From IMG/VR virus record IMGVR_UViG_3300007351_000003, positions 4,022 through 68,021 of that record: 64,000 nucleotides of DNA. One strand, 5' to 3'. The stretch comes from a virus. The notes under the pieces were generated by a model. It ran no database searches, had not been told where the DNA came from, and saw nothing but the letters and a program-made list of their open reading frames with translations. Below are positions 39,849-59,574 of this stretch, one piece after another. Numbering within the stretch: the stretch's first letter is position 1; each line of letters starts with the position of its first letter. A program made the translations under genes and the position numbers.

Positions 39849-40190
39849 TTATTTACTCAAACTCAATTTCAATAATCGTTTGGTCTTCCGCTCCTCTTTC
39901 TTGCGAGTACGATACTTCTTTGATGATGCTGGCGTTATCGTCTGCAAGTATTCCTGCTTTTGTAATCCCGTCCAAGACAGCTTTAATACTCGCTCCGTCG
40001 GGATCTGTGAGATGTTTTCTGATGCTATGCACTCTGATACGGCATGGTGTATGGCATCCCGTACTTTCTTTCTTTGCCATGGGCTCATGGCGAGAAGCGC
40101 GTTCCATGTCGGCAGCCTGAACGGGAGTGCCAACACTATTTTTTTGACAGGCACCACAGATGAGCTTATTTCCTTTCCATTTACATCCAT
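39849..40190 (-). CDS. Overlapping ORF carrying the RusA-like N-terminal segment
   Basis: TAATG coupling to upstream gene; LALPFRLPTWN...RKKVRDAIHHAV resembles the RusA N-terminus. Confidence 0.5.
   Translation of the reverse strand: MDVNGKEISSSVVPVKKIVLALPFRLPTWNALLAMSPWQRKKVRDAIHHAVSECIASENISQIPTERVLKLSWTGLQKQEYLQTITPASSKKYRTRKKEERKTKRLLKLSLSK
39853..40080 (-). CDS. rusA: RusA-like Holliday junction resolvase catalytic core
   Basis: TDPDGASIKAVLDGITKAGILADD matches RusA DxD...D...DD; start uncertain. Confidence 0.7.
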   Translation of the reverse strand: MAKKESTGCHTPCRIRVHSIRKHLTDPDGASIKAVLDGITKAGILADDNASIIKEVSYSQERGAEDQTIIEIEFE

Positions 40191-52858: not shown

Positions 52859-53008
52859 TCAGCAGTGCAGCAATGCCCATGGAACCAATACCTGTGGAGC
52901 TGGCTGGAAGCAGTGCCCCTGCCCTCAGTCGATCGACCACATCAAAAAGGTACGGCGCCGGGGAGATCCCGGGCCCCTGCCGCCGAGAGAAGAAAGCGAG
53001 GAATACCG

Positions 53009-54988
53009 ATGAAAAAGATCAGCCTGAAGAAACTGGTGCTCAAGGACTTCCAGGGCGGGAATTTCACGCTCGAATCGAACGGACAGGATGTTCATATCAG
53101 CGGGGATAACGGGGTAGGCAAAACGAGGCTTATCAGCGCCTTCACGTGGCTCCTGTTCAATAAAGACTCCCTCGGCCGCAACGACTTCCAGATTAAGAAC
53201 CTTGACGCGACCGGCGAAGCCGCGCACGGGCTCGAGCATACCGTCGAAGCGGTACTGGATGTAAACGGCGACCTCGTAACACTCAAGAAGGTCTACGTGG
53301 AAAGATGGACCAAACAGCGCGGCCGAGCGCACGCGGAATTCTCCGGCCATACCACGAACCATTTTATCGATGAGATACCCGTATCCGAAAAAGACTACAA
53401 GGCCCGAATCGCCGAGATCACCGGGGATGAGGCACGGTTCCGCCTTCTGACCTCCCCTACCACATTCCCCGCCCTACACTGGAAGGAAATGCGGTCCATC
53501 CTGCTTTCGGTCTGCGGAGATATCAGCGACCAGGATGTGATCAACTCCGACGAGAAGCTTTTCGCCCTTACCGCAATCCTCGGGAAGAGAAAACTGGACG
53601 ACCACAAGAAGGTCGTTGCAGCCAGAAAAGCTGAGATCAATGGGGAACTCGGGAAGATCCCCGTCCGGATAGACGAGGTGCGCCGGTCCCTGCCTGACAT
53701 CGCTGGATTGGACAAGGACGCGCTTTGGAACGAGCAGTTGCGGCTCGAGGGCGCCATCTCTGACGCCAAACTCCGGAAGCAGGGTGTGGACACCGGAGGG
53801 GCCATTGCGGACCTGACCAAACAACTGAAAGCCATCGACTCCGACCTGTACCGGATGGAGCGCGCGCACAGCGACGAGATCGGAAAAACAGTGGGCAGAC
53901 TGAGCGGAGAAGTCACGGAAGCCTATGAAAAACTTCGTGCCAGCCGCAACCGTCTGGATGCCATTGACGGGGAAATAAATCGCAAGAAGTCCTCTGTAAG
54001 CGCCCTTGAAAACGATCTGGACCGATACCGGTCCCAGTGGGGCGGCATTGAAGCCGAACGGTTCCAGGACACAACAGCCGAAGCATGCGCTGCCTGCGGC
54101 CTGTCCCTTCCCGCTGGTCGTGTTCAGGAAGCTCGGAATAAAGCCCTGAAATTATTCAACGATACCAAGGCGAACCGACTGGCAGAGATCACAAGGAAGG
54201 GCGTACAACTTAGTGACGAGCGGGACGGGCTGCAGTCCCAGATTGCAGCACTTGAAACAGAAAAACAAGGTCTTACCGTGACCATTCCGGAGGCAGAAAA
54301 GCGGCACCAGGAACTTACCGCCGAGCGCGATGCGGTCAAGAAGCAAGCAGAGGACTATTCCGCGATACCGGGCAGGGCCGCACTGCTCGCCCAGAAGACC
54401 GATATCGAACAGAAGATTACGGCCGCCAAGGGCTCGGTAGCCCAGGACACCGCCAAGATCGAGCAGGAAATCGACGGCATGGAAACTACCCTGAAGGGCG
54501 TCAAGGAGAAGCACGGCCGGTTCGAAACACGCGAAAAGGCAGAGAAGCGGATCGAAGAACTGAAAGCCGAGGAAAAGAAACTGGCGTCCGAGTTTGAACA
54601 GCTCGAATCCGAACTCTTCCTGTGTGAACAGTTCATCAGGACCAAGGTGAGCATGCTGACCGACCGGATCAATTCCCGGTTCGAGATCGTGCGCTTCAAA
54701 CTGTTCAATGTTCAGGTCAATGGCGGACTGGATGAGTGCTGCGAGATCACCGTCAATGGGGTGCCTTATAACGGCGGTCTGAACAATGCGGCCCGGATCA
54801 ATTCCGGCCTTGACATTTGCCGGACCCTCTCCCAGCACTACGGCCTTCTGGCGCCGGTCTTTGTAGACAATGCCGAATCCGTGACCAGTTTGGTAAAAAT
54901 GGACGCCCAGGTTATCCGGCTGGTCGTGAGCGCGCTGGACAAGACGCTCCGGGTGGAGATGGCAAACAGGAAAATGGTGGCAGCATGA
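53009..54988 (+). CDS. SbcC/RecF-like ABC ATPase with long coiled coil
   Basis: GDNGVGKT Walker A; CAACG zinc hook; LNNAARIN signature; VFVDNAES Walker B. Confidence 0.88.
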   Translation: MKKISLKKLVLKDFQGGNFTLESNGQDVHISGDNGVGKTRLISAFTWLLFNKDSLGRNDFQIKNLDATGEAAHGLEHTVEAVLDVNGDLVTLKKVYVERWTKQRGRAHAEFSGHTTNHFIDEIPVSEKDYKARIAEITGDEARFRLLTSPTTFPALHWKEMRSILLSVCGDISDQDVINSDEKLFALTAILGKRKLDDHKKVVAARKAEINGELGKIPVRIDEVRRSLPDIAGLDKDALWNEQLRLEGAISDAKLRKQGVDTGGAIADLTKQLKAIDSDLYRMERAHSDEIGKTVGRLSGEVTEAYEKLRASRNRLDAIDGEINRKKSSVSALENDLDRYRSQWGGIEAERFQDTTAEACAACGLSLPAGRVQEARNKALKLFNDTKANRLAEITRKGVQLSDERDGLQSQIAALETEKQGLTVTIPEAEKRHQELTAERDAVKKQAEDYSAIPGRAALLAQKTDIEQKITAAKGSVAQDTAKIEQEIDGMETTLKGVKEKHGRFETREKAEKRIEELKAEEKKLASEFEQLESELFLCEQFIRTKVSMLTDRINSRFEIVRFKLFNVQVNGGLDECCEITVNGVPYNGGLNNAARINSGLDICRTLSQHYGLLAPVFVDNAESVTSLVKMDAQVIRLVVSALDKTLRVEMANRKMVAA

Positions 54989-55233
54989 CACAGAACAACG
55001 ATACCAAAATCCCTTTGATGCAGGAAGTCGAATCCAGCAACATTGCCTCCATCGGACACGATGAGGAAGAAAACGCACTGCACGTTCAGTTTAAGAACGG
55101 CGGGCACTATGTCTATTCCGGCATCGCGCGTGATGCATTCAATGAAATCCTAAAGGCCAAAAGCGTGGGCGGCTATATCCACAAGCACGTGAAAGGCCAG
55201 TGTGCCTGCAGGAAGATCGAGATCAAGAAATAG
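54985..55233 (+). CDS. KTSC-domain protein
   Basis: VESSNIASIGHD...LHVQFKNGGHYVY...AKSVGGY. Confidence 0.88.
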   Translation: MTQNNDTKIPLMQEVESSNIASIGHDEEENALHVQFKNGGHYVYSGIARDAFNEILKAKSVGGYIHKHVKGQCACRKIEIKK

Positions 55234-55259: not shown

Positions 55260-55565
55260 ATGAAAACAGTATCGATTTGCAAAGCTCAGGGTATTCCACG
55301 GGTGAACAGCATCGAACCCGTGACAATAGTGATTGAACGGGAATTCCCGGAGTACAAGGCCCTGAGCCAATCTGCCGAGCATTTTGAAAAGGATGCAGAT
55401 GCCCTTGTGGGCGCCATCTTAACCACTCTACCGGGTGGGACGATTGACAGATTGATATGCAAACTTCTTCAGAAGAAGGCGTCACTTTTCGTTGTACCGT
55501 TATTTAATGAAAAAAAACCAGACGAAGGAGGCATCACCCATGGCAACACAGACAGCAACAGATAA
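55260..55565 (+). CDS. Hypothetical protein
   Basis: 101 aa; LPGGTIDRL motif. Confidence 0.55.
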   Translation: MKTVSICKAQGIPRVNSIEPVTIVIEREFPEYKALSQSAEHFEKDADALVGAILTTLPGGTIDRLICKLLQKKASLFVVPLFNEKKPDEGGITHGNTDSNR

Positions 55566-56538
55566 GGCCCCGGCAAAGCCCGGGAACGTACCGGCAACAC
55601 AAAAGGCAGCAGCCCCGACAATTTCGGGCACATCCAAGAGCATCACCGATATGGTTGAGTCCAGCATCAGCCAGATGGTCATGGCCGGGAAACTCGTTCT
55701 CCCTCCCGATTACGCAGTGGCGAACGCCCTCAAATCGGCCTACCTGATGCTCCAGACGGTGGAAAATCGGGATCACAAGAAGGCCCTTGAGGTTTGCACC
55801 AGGGAGAGCGTGGCAAACGCTCTACTGGATATGGTGGTGCAGGGCCTGAACGTCGGCAAGGACCAGGGATATTTTATCGTCTTCGGCAACCAACTGGTGT
55901 TTATGCGCTCTTACATGGGCGCCATGGCCGTCGTAAAGATGGTCAACCCGGCCGTTAAGGACTTCGCCTTTGCCGTGGTATATGAGGGAGACGTGTTTAA
56001 ATACTCCCTCAAGAACGGTCAAAAAACCGTCGTGCAGCACGAGCAGGAACTGGCAAATATCGACAAGGCCAATATTCTCGCGGCCTATGCCATCGCCCTA
56101 GACAAAGACAACAACCCGATCAGGACCGAGATTTCCACGATCGACGAGATCCATCAGGCATGGAAGCAGTCCAGAAACAACCCGTTTGATGATAAGGGCG
56201 ATGTTAAGGAATCGAGCACGCACGGCAAATTCGCGTCAGACATGGCCCAAAAAACCGTGATCAATAAACTGTGCAAGTTCATTATCAACTCATCATCCGA
56301 CAACACCCTGCTGAAAGAAACAGTCAACAAGACGTATGAAGTCGTGGATGCCGCCGCGGTAAAGGCGGAAATCAGCGATGCGGCAAACGCTGGTCCGGTG
56401 CTGGAAATCCCCGCGGAGACCATCACCGAGACTGCCCAGGCAGCCGAGCAGTCAACCCAGCCCGAGAAGTCCCCGCCGCCGGCAGGAGACGGGCAGCTTC
56501 CGCTTACGGGAGCAACGGCAAGGAAACCGGGATTTTAA
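55540..56538 (+). CDS. recT: RecT-family single-strand annealing protein
   Basis: PPDYAVANAL, SVANALLDMVVQGL, YFIVFGNQL..RSYMG, MAQKTVI. Confidence 0.9.
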   Translation: MATQTATDKAPAKPGNVPATQKAAAPTISGTSKSITDMVESSISQMVMAGKLVLPPDYAVANALKSAYLMLQTVENRDHKKALEVCTRESVANALLDMVVQGLNVGKDQGYFIVFGNQLVFMRSYMGAMAVVKMVNPAVKDFAFAVVYEGDVFKYSLKNGQKTVVQHEQELANIDKANILAAYAIALDKDNNPIRTEISTIDEIHQAWKQSRNNPFDDKGDVKESSTHGKFASDMAQKTVINKLCKFIINSSSDNTLLKETVNKTYEVVDAAAVKAEISDAANAGPVLEIPAETITETAQAAEQSTQPEKSPPPAGDGQLPLTGATARKPGF

Positions 56539-56633: not shown

Positions 56634-57206
56634 ATGAATGAAATTTGGAAAGACATACCTGAGTTTGAAGGTGTTTATCAAATCTCAAATCATGGTAGAT
56701 TGAAAAAACTAAAATGCGAAAGAAGACCGCATTCCTATCCTCGGATTGTATCGGTTAAAAACGGGAATGGGTGGTATCTCACGATTATTTTGCAGTTCGA
56801 AGGGAAAAAGAAAACTGCGAGAATACACCGTCTTGTGGCAGAGGCATTCATTCCTAATCCAGAAAATAAGCTAGAGGTAAACCACAAAGATACGAATAAA
56901 CAAAACAACCACTGGAGCAATTTAGAGTGGGTCAGCCGAAAAGAAAATCATGCTCATGCGGTCAAGAATACAGATATCGTAAAGGGCATGAATCATTACA
57001 ACAAGTTTGTCAGGCCAAATATCATAGTGCAAGTTTCTCCTGAAGGAGATGTAATTAAAGAATTCCCAAACGCATGCGAAGCTGCGCGAACTACAGGCGT
57101 ATGTAACAGAAATATTCTCCAAGTTGCTCATAAGACGCAATATAAGCCTGGGAAAATCAGGAAGCAAGCGGGTGGTTTTATCTGGAGGTTTAAGGATGCA
57201 GTTTGA
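56634..57206 (+). CDS. NUMOD4-HNH homing endonuclease
   Basis: EIWKDIPEFEGVYQISNHGR; IHRLVAEAFI; VNHKDTNKQNN..SNLEW. Confidence 0.9.
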   Translation: MNEIWKDIPEFEGVYQISNHGRLKKLKCERRPHSYPRIVSVKNGNGWYLTIILQFEGKKKTARIHRLVAEAFIPNPENKLEVNHKDTNKQNNHWSNLEWVSRKENHAHAVKNTDIVKGMNHYNKFVRPNIIVQVSPEGDVIKEFPNACEAARTTGVCNRNILQVAHKTQYKPGKIRKQAGGFIWRFKDAV

Positions 57207-57901
57207 GTCATTGGCGTCATCCAGTAAAGGAAATGCTTATATCGTTACAGCGGAAGGGGCAGCGCCGTTGCTCATCGAAGCAGGTATGCCAATCCGCACT
57301 TTGAGAGAACGCCTAGGTTTTGGCGTTACGGGTCTCGCGGGGTGCCTTGTATCCCACGAGCATCTTTGACCACGCCAAAGGCGTCAAGGACTTGCTTAAA
57401 GCAGGCGTAGACTGCTGGATGAGCGCAGGGACCGCCGAGGCACTTGGAGTATTCGGCCATCACCGGCATTGCCTGCTTTTGCCTGACGATACTGCGACAC
57501 TAGGAAATGGATGGACGGTAAAGCCTTTTGATCTACAACACGACGCCTCAGAGCCGCTCGGCTTCCTCATAGGCCACAAAGATGAAAGGCTTCTGTTCGT
57601 TCCAGATACCGCATACGTCGAGAACCGCTTCGCAGGTGTCACCCTGGCCGCGATCGAATGTAACCACGTGGAGTCCATCCTGTCGCAGAATATCGTAAGC
57701 GGCCGGGTGGATCCTTCTCTCGGGAAGCGGATACGCAGGAATCACATGAGCCTGGAAACCGCAATCGCCATGCTCAAAGCCAATGATCTGAGCAAGTGCC
57801 GGAAGATTTTTTTGCTTCATCTCTCAGACGCTAACTCGGATGAGCAGCGCATGAAACTTGAGATCCAGCAGGCCACAGGAATACCGACTGAAATATGCTG
57901 A
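57196..57901 (+). CDS. MBL-fold exonuclease requiring a +1 frameshift at 57364-57370 (or a pseudogene)
   Basis: LASSSKGN...SHEHL in one frame, DHAKG...HDA...DT...IECNH...LLHLS in the +1 frame; junction CTT TGA C. Confidence 0.85.
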
Positions 57902-58771: not shown

Positions 58772-59113
58772 ATGACACATTTTGAAGACGGACCCGCAAA
58801 AGGGGAAACCCTGATGCTGAAACGTTCTCCCATCTTTCTCCGTGTGGTAGAAGTTAACGGACAATGGGACGCTCTTGATCAGTTGGATGACGAACCAGCC
58901 CCCCATGAGAAGATATACGCCTATGAACGCATAGGCGAGCCCGGCATGGTGCATATCAATGCAGGGCGTAAGGGCAACAGTGGGTGGTATCCGATGGCAG
59001 CTTACCGGTTCATAACTGATCAACCAACCGATTCTGCAATGCTCGACAGCGAAGCCTGGCGGCAGTGGTGCCGGAATAGAGTAAAACCGAAATCTACAGA
59101 GGTCTTAAAATAA
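58772..59113 (+). CDS. Conserved phage hypothetical protein
   Basis: FEDGPAKG...WDALDQLDDEP motif. Confidence 0.6.
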   Translation: MTHFEDGPAKGETLMLKRSPIFLRVVEVNGQWDALDQLDDEPAPHEKIYAYERIGEPGMVHINAGRKGNSGWYPMAAYRFITDQPTDSAMLDSEAWRQWCRNRVKPKSTEVLK

Positions 59114-59574
59114 TGGTCATCCTTGCCTTTCTGCAAAACATGTGGGTTCGGGAGCCCGAGAAGGTCCGGGCTTGGCTGGACAAGAATCCGCATCTCTGGA
59201 ACCGTGCCGTAACCGGCTTTTTGTTCTCGGGCTGTCTGACCGGCCGGAGGATTAAAGCCTGCTTCGGTGACCTGGTCGAGAAGATGACATTCGAGGAATG
59301 TACAAGGGAGATCGCCGGCGATTCCCGAACCATCTGCCCACCGAACACCGCACACATCGAGGCTTGTATCGAGAAGTACAAACCGACGGTTGTGGTCACG
59401 TTCGGGAGGATCGCAGCTGAGGCGGTACGACCGATCTGGCATGCCTGGTCCACATTGACGCCTGAATATTTTATCGCATTGCCTCACCCAGCAGCCAGGC
59501 AGGTCGACACGATCAGCAAACTGAAGTCTGCAGCCAATAAGATCAGGAGGCTCTGTGGAAACTACATCAGTTAG
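59113..59574 (+). CDS. Uracil-DNA glycosylase-like superfamily protein
   Basis: PTVVVTFGRIA and IALPHPAAR motifs. Confidence 0.6.
   Translation: MVILAFLQNMWVREPEKVRAWLDKNPHLWNRAVTGFLFSGCLTGRRIKACFGDLVEKMTFEECTREIAGDSRTICPPNTAHIEACIEKYKPTVVVTFGRIAAEAVRPIWHAWSTLTPEYFIALPHPAARQVDTISKLKSAANKIRRLCGNYIS

What the first reader, a model, noticed from the sequence alone, without database searches (positions are those of the whole stretch)
57355..57375. prfB-type CUU-UGA-C +1 frameshift inside the metal-binding motif of the exonuclease
Seen: CAC GAG CAT CTT TGA C CAC. The zero frame stops at SHEHL*; the +1 frame continues DHAKG, which restores HxHxDH exactly. Established: CUU-UGA-C is the RF2 (prfB) autoregulatory +1 shift site. 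The upstream internal SD of prfB is weak or absent here (CACGAG). Inference: RF2-sensitive programmed frameshifting that limits or conditions nuclease output. The alternatives are a one-base insertion pseudogene or a sequencing error.
Basis: partly seen in the sequence, partly recalled or inferred. Interest (0 to 1): 0.7.

Follow-up and report, generated by a model that had tools for sequence, protein, structure and literature searches.

The report
Conserved +1 frameshift in phage hydrolase
A phage metal-dependent hydrolase gene is split inside its catalytic motif by one extra T. The T creates the same shift site (CUU-UGA-C) that bacteria use in their release-factor-2 gene, dozens of diverged relatives keep the same break, and it is often found next to a selfish homing-endonuclease gene, so it is very probably a real, selected ribosomal frameshift and not an error or a dead gene.

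Summary
ORF1 runs from ATG 57196 to CAC GAG CAT CTT TGA (57367-57369). The +1 frame continues GAC CAC... to 57901 and restores HxHxDH.

It is not a sequencing error or a pseudogene:
- At least 46 distinct homologous phage genes from independent assemblies carry CAY GAR CAY CTT TGA C at the same codon.
- Every complete copy keeps an intact +1-frame ORF. dN/dS of that part is 0.07-0.22, over dS up to about 1.9.
- Only T is inserted, never A, C or G.
- C follows UGA 14:1. The codon before CUU is CAU 40:6.
- A minority variant uses UUU_UGA_C, as a minority of prfB genes do.

There is no internal Shine-Dalgarno sequence, no conserved RNA structure and no special tRNA.

An intact HNH homing-endonuclease gene sits directly upstream in 14 of 37 interrupted loci and in 0 of 129 uninterrupted ones. 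The window is one of the 14.

Best reading: a prfB-type, SD-less +1 frameshift compensates a one-base "savior" insertion. That insertion probably protects the conserved motif DNA from the neighbouring endonuclease, a minimal analogue of T4 mobA/gene 60.

RF2-dependent regulation is possible but untested. I found no publication describing this. The scan has already noted other insert types at this same codon on other DNA.

The parts
55492..56538 (+). RecT-family single-strand annealing protein. It is the usual direct upstream neighbour of the MBL gene in relatives.
   Evidence: Pfam RecT, E 2.8e-28. In uninterrupted relatives RecT ends 250-440 nt before the motif, which leaves no room for another gene.
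56634..57206 (+). Free-standing HNH homing-endonuclease gene (NUMOD4 + HNH_3, 190 aa). It is inserted between RecT and the MBL gene, and its stop overlaps the MBL start by 11 nt.
   Evidence: Pfam HNH_3 9e-12 and NUMOD4 2.4e-10. Homologues at 47-64% identity occupy the same position, ending about 100-170 nt before the shift site, in other interrupted loci and in no uninterrupted locus.
57184..57188 (+). GGAGG ribosome-binding site of the MBL gene, 7 nt before ATG 57196.
   Evidence: Read directly from the sequence.
57196..57369 (+). MBL gene, zero-frame part: 57 codons (M...GCLVSHEHL) followed by UGA.
   Evidence: Homologous 56-65 aa fragments ending SHEHL are called as separate proteins in public data (P0124, P0125, P0126).
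57361..57370 (+). Recoding site CAT CTT TGA C. CUU (57364-57366) is the slippery P-site codon, UGA (57367-57369) is the zero-frame stop, C (57370) gives the weak termination context, and CAU (57361-57363) is the E-site codon.
   Evidence: The same site is present in at least 46 distinct relatives. T is the only base inserted. GAC:GAT is 14:1 and CAT:CAC is 40:6, both departing from the uninterrupted genes.
57368..57901 (+). MBL gene, +1-frame part: 177 codons (DHAKGV...TEIC) and stop TGA 57899-57901.
   Evidence: Pfam Lactamase_B_2. dN/dS of this part between shifted relatives is 0.07-0.22. The read-through product folds as a complete MBL domain, pLDDT 96.2.

Best explanation
The gene encodes one 234-aa MBL-fold hydrolase that can be made only by a +1 ribosomal frameshift.

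Proposed mechanism:
1. Ribosomes start at ATG 57196 and read 57 codons.
2. They pause with peptidyl-tRNA-Leu on CUU in the P site and the poorly terminating UGA-C in the A site.
3. In a fraction of ribosomes the tRNA slips one base forward from CUU to UUU. GAC is then read and H-x-H-L-D-H is completed.
4. The remaining ribosomes terminate through RF2 and release a 57-aa fragment, presumably useless.

The site has the prfB heptamer but no Shine-Dalgarno stimulator and no conserved RNA structure. Efficiency is therefore probably a few percent to perhaps ten percent (inferred).

Why the extra T exists (inferred, about 45% confidence): it is a 'savior' insertion in the most conserved DNA stretch of the gene. 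It makes the genome immune to the HNH homing endonuclease encoded directly upstream, or to related endonucleases of co-infecting phages. The catalytic motif cannot tolerate an inserted amino acid, so only an insertion that the ribosome can skip is viable. This is the logic of the T4 mobA/gene 60 cassette, reduced to a single base.
For: Shown:
1. The same CAY GAR CAY CTT TGA C sits at the same codon in diverged homologues from independent JGI, ENA, Logan, NCBI-MAG and IMG/VR assemblies. These include L005-L008, 13 IMG/VR contigs, 6 MAG contigs, five of them binned as Clostridia and one (L119) in an archaeal Bathyarchaeia bin, and 34 metagenome contigs. That makes 46 unique sequence contexts whose flanking synonymous sites are saturated.
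2. Every complete copy keeps an open +1 ORF of 169-193 aa. dN/dS of that part between shifted pairs is 0.07-0.22 while dS reaches 0.75-1.9.
3. In IMG/VR with identical flanks, the MBL genes with an inserted T number 13 plus the window, those with A, C or G number 0, and those with no insertion (CTT GAC) number only 7.
4. The site shows prfB-like preferences. C follows UGA 14:1 against 68:54 GAC:GAT in uninterrupted genes (p 0.0045). The E-site codon is CAU 40:6 against 69:53 (p 2e-4). GC3 is equal in both sets.
5. A second shift codon, UUU_UGA_C, occurs in L338/L360, L351/L358 and L361. This matches the statement in PMC5009743 that prfB uses CUU_U and, in a minority of species, UUU_U, with C nearly always after UGA.
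6. Leu at x4 is rare in uninterrupted genes (3 of 78). Uninterrupted Leu forms lie next to shifted tips on the tree.
7. SD-less prfB sites do work, at about 7% in F. johnsoniae (PMC10798248).
8. The read-through protein gives a confident, complete MBL fold.

For the endonuclease link:
- An HNH gene of at least 100 aa lies directly upstream in 14 of 37 interrupted loci and 0 of 129 uninterrupted loci (Fisher 8e-11).
- Degenerate HNH remnants are present in L011 and L008.
- L263, which carries a different interruption at the same codon (CTC TAA CTT GAT), has a different HNH_3 gene upstream.
- There is a published precedent: the T4 gene 60 insert protects against MobA (PMC5009743; preprint 10.1101/2022.08.31.505936).
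Against: - No frameshift product has been observed. Everything here is comparative.
- All instances come from metagenome assemblies or MAGs. No cultured phage with the site was found among 130 phage records holding a homologue.
- Without SD or structure the efficiency may be low.
- The synonymous-site statistics are not corrected for shared ancestry.

Against the endonuclease-immunity part specifically:
- 23 of 37 interrupted loci have no HNH gene nearby.
- The phylogenetically independent-pairs test is underpowered: about 3 pairs go the same way, 0 the opposite way, out of 10.
- HNH identity tracks both halves of the MBL gene (r 0.78 and 0.83). The association could therefore come from a limited number of old events.
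- N-terminal versus C-terminal mosaicism at the site (L010 against L007) is no more common in shifted genes than in uninterrupted ones.
- The cleavage site of the HNH enzyme is unknown.
Confidence: 0.85

Rival explanations
1. Regulatory RF2 sensor. The shift site exists to couple hydrolase output to RF2 activity, or simply to keep a potentially harmful nuclease at a low fixed level. The endonuclease neighbour is incidental.
For: The heptamer, the C after UGA and the CUU/UUU choice are those of the RF2 autoregulatory site. UGA is read only by RF2 (PMC5009743), so the shift must compete with RF2. 23 of 37 interrupted loci keep the site without any HNH gene, and selection maintains the site over long divergence.
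Against: UGA is forced by geometry, because one T before GAC gives TGA, so its use is not evidence of RF2 sensing. A purely translational regulator could sit anywhere in the gene. Here every interruption I saw (CTT_T, TTT_T, a 6-nt TAA insert) is at the same codon of the most conserved DNA stretch. About 95% of family members do without it. The HNH gene is never found next to an uninterrupted gene.
Confidence: 0.3
2. Tolerated leaky mutation. CTT GAC lineages repeatedly gain a T by slippage. Because this happens to create a shifty site, the gene stays partly functional and the state drifts in and out without being favoured.
For: The interrupted state is scattered on the tree, with at least 16-22 changes on FastTree trees and 10 on well-supported branches. 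It neighbours uninterrupted CTT forms. One base separates the two states.
Against: With identical flanks the interrupted state (13 plus the window) outnumbers the uninterrupted CTT state (7). It persists across dS of 0.75-1.9 although a one-base deletion would restore the frame. Synonymous positions around the site are biased in the direction expected for shift efficiency. The link with HNH genes is unexplained by drift.
Confidence: 0.1
3. Sequencing or assembly error, or a recently dead gene in this particular phage.
For: The record is a single metagenome contig and the reads are not available. The insertion extends a run of T.
Against: The identical site is present in at least 46 other distinct sequences from different samples, assemblers and databases. 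No second lesion occurs in any complete copy. The downstream frame is under strong purifying selection.
Confidence: 0.02
4. Split gene. The 57-aa N fragment and a separately initiated C fragment assemble into an active enzyme without any frameshift.
For: Gene callers annotate two ORFs. A few relatives have an ATG in the +1 frame just before the junction, created by CAT GAA, in L005, L006, L020 and L200.
Against: No start codon or RBS is conserved for the +1 part. Across loci the first possible starts range from 113 nt upstream to 145 nt downstream of the site, and many would lose the DH of the motif. The window has only a TTG 35 nt upstream with no SD. The break falls inside the metal-binding loop.
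Confidence: 0.03

Closest known systems
prfB (release factor 2) autoregulatory +1 programmed frameshift, CUU_UGA_C
   Same: The heptamer is identical. The P-site tRNA-Leu slips from CUU to UUU at an RF2-specific UGA. C after the stop is strongly preferred (14:1). A minority variant uses UUU_U. The functional bulk of the protein is encoded in the +1 frame, and the zero-frame product is a short peptide (PMC5009743).
   Different: No internal Shine-Dalgarno stimulator. The gene product is not RF2, so there is no feedback loop. The site lies at codon 58 inside a catalytic motif, not early in a dispensable region. It is present in only about 4-5% of family members, against about 87% of prfB genes.
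Phage T4 mobA / gene 60 cassette (HNH homing endonuclease plus a 50-nt translationally bypassed insert; Bonocora et al. 2011, as described in PMC5009743 and preprint 10.1101/2022.08.31.505936)
   Same: An HNH endonuclease gene lies directly 5' of a gene whose highly conserved coding DNA carries a non-coding insertion that ribosomes must skip. Across relatives the endonuclease is seen only together with an interruption. The logic is the same: recoding allows foreign bases in a motif that cannot accept extra amino acids.
   Different: The insert here is 1 nt and is handled by a +1 slip on overlapping codons. It is not a 50-nt hop with take-off and landing codons, a hairpin and a nascent-peptide signal. 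The endonuclease is intergenic (between RecT and MBL) and does not split the host gene. Many interrupted loci lack the endonuclease. Protection from cleavage is untested here.
'Savior indel plus compensatory low-level frameshifting' (for example the herpesvirus thymidine kinase G-run; PMC5009743)
   Same: A DNA-level indel that is advantageous for another reason is compensated by a modest level of ribosomal frameshifting. The non-shifted product is useless.
   Different: That case is a drug-selected mutation arising within patients. This one is an evolutionarily conserved site across a phage gene family, with sequence features tuned to shifting.
Other interruptions at the same codon of this phage MBL family, noted earlier in this scan (e1-1935047, e1-2903616, e1-3643297, e1-3777659, e1-3067471)
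   Same: Same gene family and same position between H-x-H-x and D-H. The interruptions contain a stop codon, and some are linked to HNH genes. I saw one such case myself: L263, CTC TAA CTT GAT.
   Different: Those are 2-11 nt gaps read as short hops, or a four-base codon. This one is a single base read by a classical +1 slip at the prfB heptamer.

Membership tests
prfB-type +1 programmed frameshift site | Heptamer CUU_UGA_C with UGA in the zero frame | tested here: met
   57364-57370. Present in 46 distinct relatives.
prfB-type +1 programmed frameshift site | The functional part of the protein is encoded in the +1 frame and is conserved | tested here: met
   A 177-codon +1 ORF with a Pfam MBL hit. 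dN/dS 0.07-0.22.
prfB-type +1 programmed frameshift site | Internal Shine-Dalgarno stimulator about 3 nt 5' of CUU | tested here: not met
   Upstream sequence is TCC CAC GAG CAT. Mean anti-SD duplex energy is -0.74 kcal/mol in 46 shifted sequences against -1.36 in 78 uninterrupted ones. SD-less prfB sites do exist (PMC10798248).
prfB-type +1 programmed frameshift site | The gene encodes RF2, closing an autoregulatory loop | tested here: not met
   The product is an MBL-fold hydrolase.
prfB-type +1 programmed frameshift site | Measured +1 frameshifting that responds to the RF2 level | not testable with these tools
   Needs a reporter assay or mass spectrometry.
Homing-endonuclease plus recoding-insert cassette (T4 mobA/gene 60 type) | An intact HNH endonuclease gene directly 5' of the interrupted gene | tested here: met
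   56634-57206, NUMOD4 + HNH_3. Full-length homologues occupy the same position in 13 other loci.
Homing-endonuclease plus recoding-insert cassette (T4 mobA/gene 60 type) | Across relatives the endonuclease co-occurs with the interruption | tested here: met
   HNH upstream in 14/37 interrupted loci against 0/129 uninterrupted (Fisher 8e-11). The independent-pairs test points the same way but is underpowered.
Homing-endonuclease plus recoding-insert cassette (T4 mobA/gene 60 type) | The insert blocks cleavage or nicking by the endonuclease | not testable with these tools
   Needs a cleavage assay on alleles with and without the T.
Homing-endonuclease plus recoding-insert cassette (T4 mobA/gene 60 type) | Long-range bypass with matched take-off and landing codons and a hairpin | tested here: not met
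   The insert is a single base and no conserved structure is present. Relative L263 does show CTC-TAA-CTT.
Homing-endonuclease plus recoding-insert cassette (T4 mobA/gene 60 type) | The cassette moves as a unit, so the N-terminal part travels with the endonuclease | tested here: inconclusive
   L010 and L007 share 80-90% DNA identity up to the site and 45-60% after it. Such mosaics are equally common in uninterrupted genes. HNH identity tracks both gene halves.
MBL-fold (Lactamase_B_2) metallo-hydrolase | HxHxDH motif and the domain above Pfam threshold | tested here: met
   Read-through P0003 scores 50.3 bits on PF12706 against a cut-off of 27. PHROG 392 'metal-dependent hydrolase', E 4.8e-64. 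AF2 pLDDT 96.2.
Apyc1 anti-Pycsar cyclic-nucleotide phosphodiesterase | Pfam PF23023 above its gathering score | tested here: not met
   17.8 bits against a cut-off of 50, matching only the N-terminal motif region. Structural similarity to Apyc1 is TM about 0.6, no better than to ElaC, YhfI or PhnP.
RecT-partner exonuclease | Demonstrated DNA exonuclease activity or membership of a characterised exonuclease family | not testable with these tools
   Only gene adjacency to RecT supports it. RecT was detected upstream in 44 of the 78 uninterrupted loci of the first sample, and directly adjacent in 39 of those.

The most novel reading that the evidence does not exclude
The single inserted T is a functional resistance allele against a homing endonuclease. 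HNH endonucleases that target the invariant HxHxDH-coding DNA of phage MBL genes have repeatedly selected insertions at that exact codon. Only insertions that ribosomes can skip survive: CUU_U or UUU_U before GAC, and short stop-hops.

If so, selfish endonucleases would be a general evolutionary source of recoding sites in catalytic motifs. The prfB heptamer would have arisen here convergently, as the minimal one-base version of the T4 gene 60 cassette.
Probability: 0.45. Interest if true: 0.85.

Novelty: new variant of a known kind. Interest (0 to 1): 0.75.

Why it matters
Outside prfB, naturally used +1 frameshift sites in bacteria and phages are few. I found no report of the prfB heptamer being used by another gene family.

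Here it recurs in dozens of diverged phage genes. It has the same fine preferences as prfB (CUU over UUU, and C after UGA) but no Shine-Dalgarno stimulator. That gives a natural series for asking what the bare heptamer can do in Firmicute ribosomes.

The strict one-way link with HNH homing-endonuclease genes extends the T4 mobA/gene 60 idea from a single 50-nt curiosity to a one-base case. It suggests that conflict with selfish nucleases drives recoding in active-site motifs.

In practice, gene callers split these genes, and annotators will label them pseudogenes.

Tried and rejected
1. **Antonov et al. 2013 'cyclic-nucleotide phosphodiesterase' frameshift cluster (PMC3711429).** I checked whether it is this family. 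It is a different -1 A_AAA_AAG site.
2. **Special decoding.** The 83-kb genome has only tRNA-Tyr(gta) and tRNA-Pro(tgg), with no expanded-anticodon tRNA-Leu. TGA is used as an ordinary stop, for example at the ends of the HNH and MBL genes.
3. **Conserved RNA structure or SD.** RNAalifold on 46 sequences gives no structure, and there is no SD enrichment.
4. **Co-conversion signature.** The L010/L007 breakpoint at the site looked promising, but N>C discordance is just as frequent among uninterrupted pairs. It is not used as evidence.
5. **Whether the HNH gene travels with the N-terminal part only.** It does not. HNH identity correlates with both halves.
6. **Cultured phages.** tBLASTn against 50,697 phage records found 130 homologues. 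The 60 rows listed were all single-piece matches, and no interrupted copy was identified.
7. **Nucleotide search of the phage collection.** It matched only the HNH gene weakly.
8. **The search for related loci with the 25-sequence alignment A1.** It failed because no conserved stretch was found. Narrower alignments A2 and A3 worked.
9. **Transcriptional slippage.** Rejected on general grounds: a run of 3-4 T is far shorter than known slippage tracts (own knowledge).

Full report
**1. The observation**

The window is positions 4022-68021 of an 83,217-b IMG/VR virus record, estimated 93% complete.

- At 57355-57375 the sequence is CAC GAG CAT CTT TGA C CAC.
- An ORF with a good ribosome-binding site (GGAGG 57184-57188, ATG 57196) encodes 57 residues ending ...GCLVSHEHL. 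It stops at TGA 57367-57369.
- The +1 frame is open from GAC 57368 for 177 codons (DHAKGVKDLL...) to TGA 57899-57901.
- Reading CTT, skipping one base, then reading GAC gives a 234-aa protein with an intact HxHxDH motif (P0003).
- That protein scores above threshold on Pfam Lactamase_B_2 and Lactamase_B and on PHROG 392 'metal-dependent hydrolase'.
- It folds as a complete MBL domain: AlphaFold2 pLDDT 96.2, pTM 0.93.

So the description is exact.

**2. It is not an error or a dead gene**

The 120 closest proteins to the C-terminal part are mostly continuous, 233-240 aa, with ..SHEH[G/M/Q/L]DH...

- Four of them (P0049, P0075, P0116, P0121; 56-61% identical) begin with ..NIFDH.., which is the +1-frame reading of CAY GAA CAT CTT TGA C.
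- Their contigs come from Logan, ENA and JGI. All carry CAYGAACAT CTTTGAC CAY at the same codon, with a 36-60 aa upstream ORF ending HEHL.
- Short proteins ending SHEHL or SHQHL are also on record.

Pattern scans with CAYGARCAYCTTTGACCAY found further MBL genes split at this codon:

| Collection | Split MBL genes |
|---|---|
| IMG/VR | 13 |
| GTDB genome set | 6 MAG contigs: Oscillospiraceae, Anaerococcus, Agathobacter, Clostridium, Desulfosporosinus, and one in an archaeal bin |
| Metagenome set (first 120 hits only) | 34 |

In all there are 46 distinct sequence contexts whose flanking third positions are scrambled.

- Every copy that does not run off its contig has an intact +1 ORF of 169-193 aa.
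- Between pairs of interrupted genes, dN/dS of the +1-frame part is 0.07-0.22, at dS from 0.1 to about 1.9.
- The site and the downstream frame have therefore been kept together by selection for a long time.

**3. The site has the fine structure of a shift site**

With the same flanks in IMG/VR:

| Junction | MBL genes |
|---|---|
| CTT + T + GAC | 13 (plus the window) |
| CTT + A, C or G + GAC | 0 |
| CTT + T + GAT | 1 |
| Uninterrupted CTT GAC | 7 |

Synonymous-site preferences, with equal GC3 in both sets:

| Position | Interrupted genes | Uninterrupted relatives | p |
|---|---|---|---|
| Asp codon GAC:GAT | 14:1 | 68:54 | 0.0045 |
| Codon before CUU, CAU:CAC | 40:6 | 69:53 | 2e-4 |
| First His, CAC:CAT | 36:10 | 47:75 | 5e-6 |

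The histidine codon after Asp is unbiased, 24:22. These tests ignore shared ancestry.

A second unbiased sample turned up CAY GAG CAC TTT TGA C in L338/L360, L351/L358 and L361.

The review by Atkins et al. (PMC5009743) states that the prfB shift site is CUU_U, that UUU_U occurs in a minority of species, and that the base after UGA is nearly always C. The phage genes reproduce all three features.

They do not have the prfB Shine-Dalgarno element, any conserved RNA structure, or a phage tRNA that could read four bases.

SD-less prfB sites exist and give about 7% shifting in Flavobacterium johnsoniae (PMC10798248). A modest efficiency is therefore the reasonable expectation (inference).

UGA itself is dictated by geometry: one T in front of GAC.

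**4. Distribution**

In two samples taken by similarity to the C-terminal part only:

| Sample | Loci | Interrupted | Types |
|---|---|---|---|
| First | 81 | 3 | Two CTT_T, and one CTC TAA CTT GAT (L263) |
| Second | 74 | 4 | Two CTT_T, two TTT_T |

- About 4-5% of the family is therefore interrupted.
- In uninterrupted genes x4 of HxHxDH is K, M, G or Q. Leu is rare, 3 of 78.
- On FastTree trees of the C-terminal part the interrupted state needs 16-22 changes, 10 of them on well-supported branches.
- Uninterrupted Leu (CTT) forms sit beside interrupted tips.
- So the state is gained and lost repeatedly, or moves laterally, and always at this one codon.

**5. The endonuclease link**

In the window a 190-aa NUMOD4 + HNH_3 endonuclease gene (56634-57206) is wedged between RecT (55492-56538) and the MBL gene, and overlaps its start.

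- Homologous HNH genes (47-64% identical) lie at the same place in many interrupted loci.
- L011 and L008 carry degenerate remnants.
- L263, with the 6-nt insert, has a different HNH_3 gene upstream.
- Among 166 non-redundant loci with enough upstream sequence, an HNH gene of at least 100 aa lies within 1.5 kb upstream in 14 of 37 interrupted loci and 0 of 129 uninterrupted ones (Fisher 8e-11).
- In uninterrupted loci RecT abuts the MBL gene directly.
- The only uninterrupted locus with an HNH hit has it 1.9 kb away, beyond RecT (L003).

The asymmetry is what self-immunity predicts. The endonuclease is never next to an uninterrupted target, while an interruption is often found without the endonuclease. 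An endonuclease cannot persist beside a cleavable site, but an immune allele can outlive the endonuclease.

This is the published logic of T4 gene 60, whose 50-nt insert protects against the MobA HNH endonuclease encoded just upstream. [quoted passage not shown]

Caveats:
- The independent-pairs test is underpowered: about 3 pairs concordant and 0 discordant out of 10.
- HNH identity tracks both halves of the MBL gene, so the pairs have co-diverged for a long time.
- The recombination breakpoint seen at the site between L010 and L007 is not specific to interrupted genes.
- The enzyme's target is unknown.

**6. What the protein is**

The fold is closest to the ElaC/YhfI/PhnP/Apyc1/tRNase Z group of MBL phosphodiesterases, with TM 0.6-0.75.

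- It fails the Apyc1 Pfam threshold: 17.8 bits against 50.
- Its nearly constant position after RecT, also seen in cultured Bacillus, Listeria, Clostridium and Staphylococcus phages, fits a recombination nuclease.
- 'Exonuclease' remains an inference.

**7. Comparison and novelty**

- The site works like the prfB site but is not a member of that system. It has no SD, no RF2 product and no feedback loop.
- It resembles the mobA/gene 60 cassette in architecture and probable purpose, but uses a one-base slip rather than a hop.
- Full-text searches found no paper describing a +1 shift in phage MBL genes, or another gene family using CTT_TGA_C.
- The one frameshifted 'phosphodiesterase' cluster in Antonov et al. 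2013 is an unrelated -1 site.
- Earlier notes of this scan, on other DNA, report 2-, 5-, 8- and 11-nt gaps and a CGGA codon at the same codon of this family, some with HNH neighbours. I verified only the existence of one 6-nt case (L263).
- The present finding adds the single-base, prfB-type form and quantifies the endonuclease association.

**8. Verdict**

| Question | Assessment |
|---|---|
| Observation | Confirmed |
| Real, selected +1 recoding site | About 0.85-0.9 |
| Endonuclease-immunity origin | About 0.45 |
| RF2-sensing as the purpose | About 0.3, not exclusive of the above |
| Error, pseudogene or split gene | A few percent together |

Noticed in passing
L263:2982-3005 (IMGVR_UViG_3300029812_000007): A relative carries CAT GAA CAT CTC TAA CTT GAT CAC at the same codon. 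This is a 6-nt insert with an in-frame TAA between two Leu codons (CTC and CTT), a candidate short stop-hop. An HNH_3 gene (L263:1941-2498) lies upstream.
   Followed up: partly
L338, L351, L358, L360, L361 (IMG/VR contigs 3300038805_000018, 3300049642_000046, 3300028593_000051): A variant shift site, CAC TTT TGA C (Phe UUU_U instead of Leu CUU_U), at the same codon. RecT is directly upstream. L361 has an HNH-like ORF just downstream on the opposite strand.
   Followed up: partly
L010 vs L007, from about -250 to +15 relative to the shift site: The DNA is 80-90% identical up to the shift site and only 45-60% identical after it, so there is a recombination breakpoint at the motif. Such N/C mosaics are also common among uninterrupted family members, so the conserved motif seems to be a general crossover point.
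   Followed up: yes
window 52865-55233: Upstream of RecT lie a 707-aa coiled-coil protein (only weak coiled-coil Pfam hits; possibly an SMC/SbcC-like ATPase) and a KTSC-domain protein (54817-55233). A weak UDG-superfamily hit is at 59113-59574. Together with RecT, HNH and MBL they form a recombination/replication module.
   Followed up: partly
L119 (CAZLHA010000003.1, binned as Candidatus Bathyarchaeia): A RecT plus interrupted-MBL phage region sits on a 40-kb contig assigned to an archaeal MAG. All other host assignments are Clostridia, so this is probably a mis-binned phage contig.
   Followed up: no
L008:41-907 and L003:2144-2821: In some relatives an N6/N4 DNA methyltransferase gene, rather than an HNH gene, is inserted between RecT and the MBL gene. 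L008 also keeps a 32-aa HNH-like fragment at its contig edge.
   Followed up: no
window 39849-40190: An earlier first-reader note on this genome (e1-5353536) reports a RusA-like resolvase encoded in two overlapping frames, a possible second frameshifted gene in the same phage. I did not examine it.
   Followed up: no
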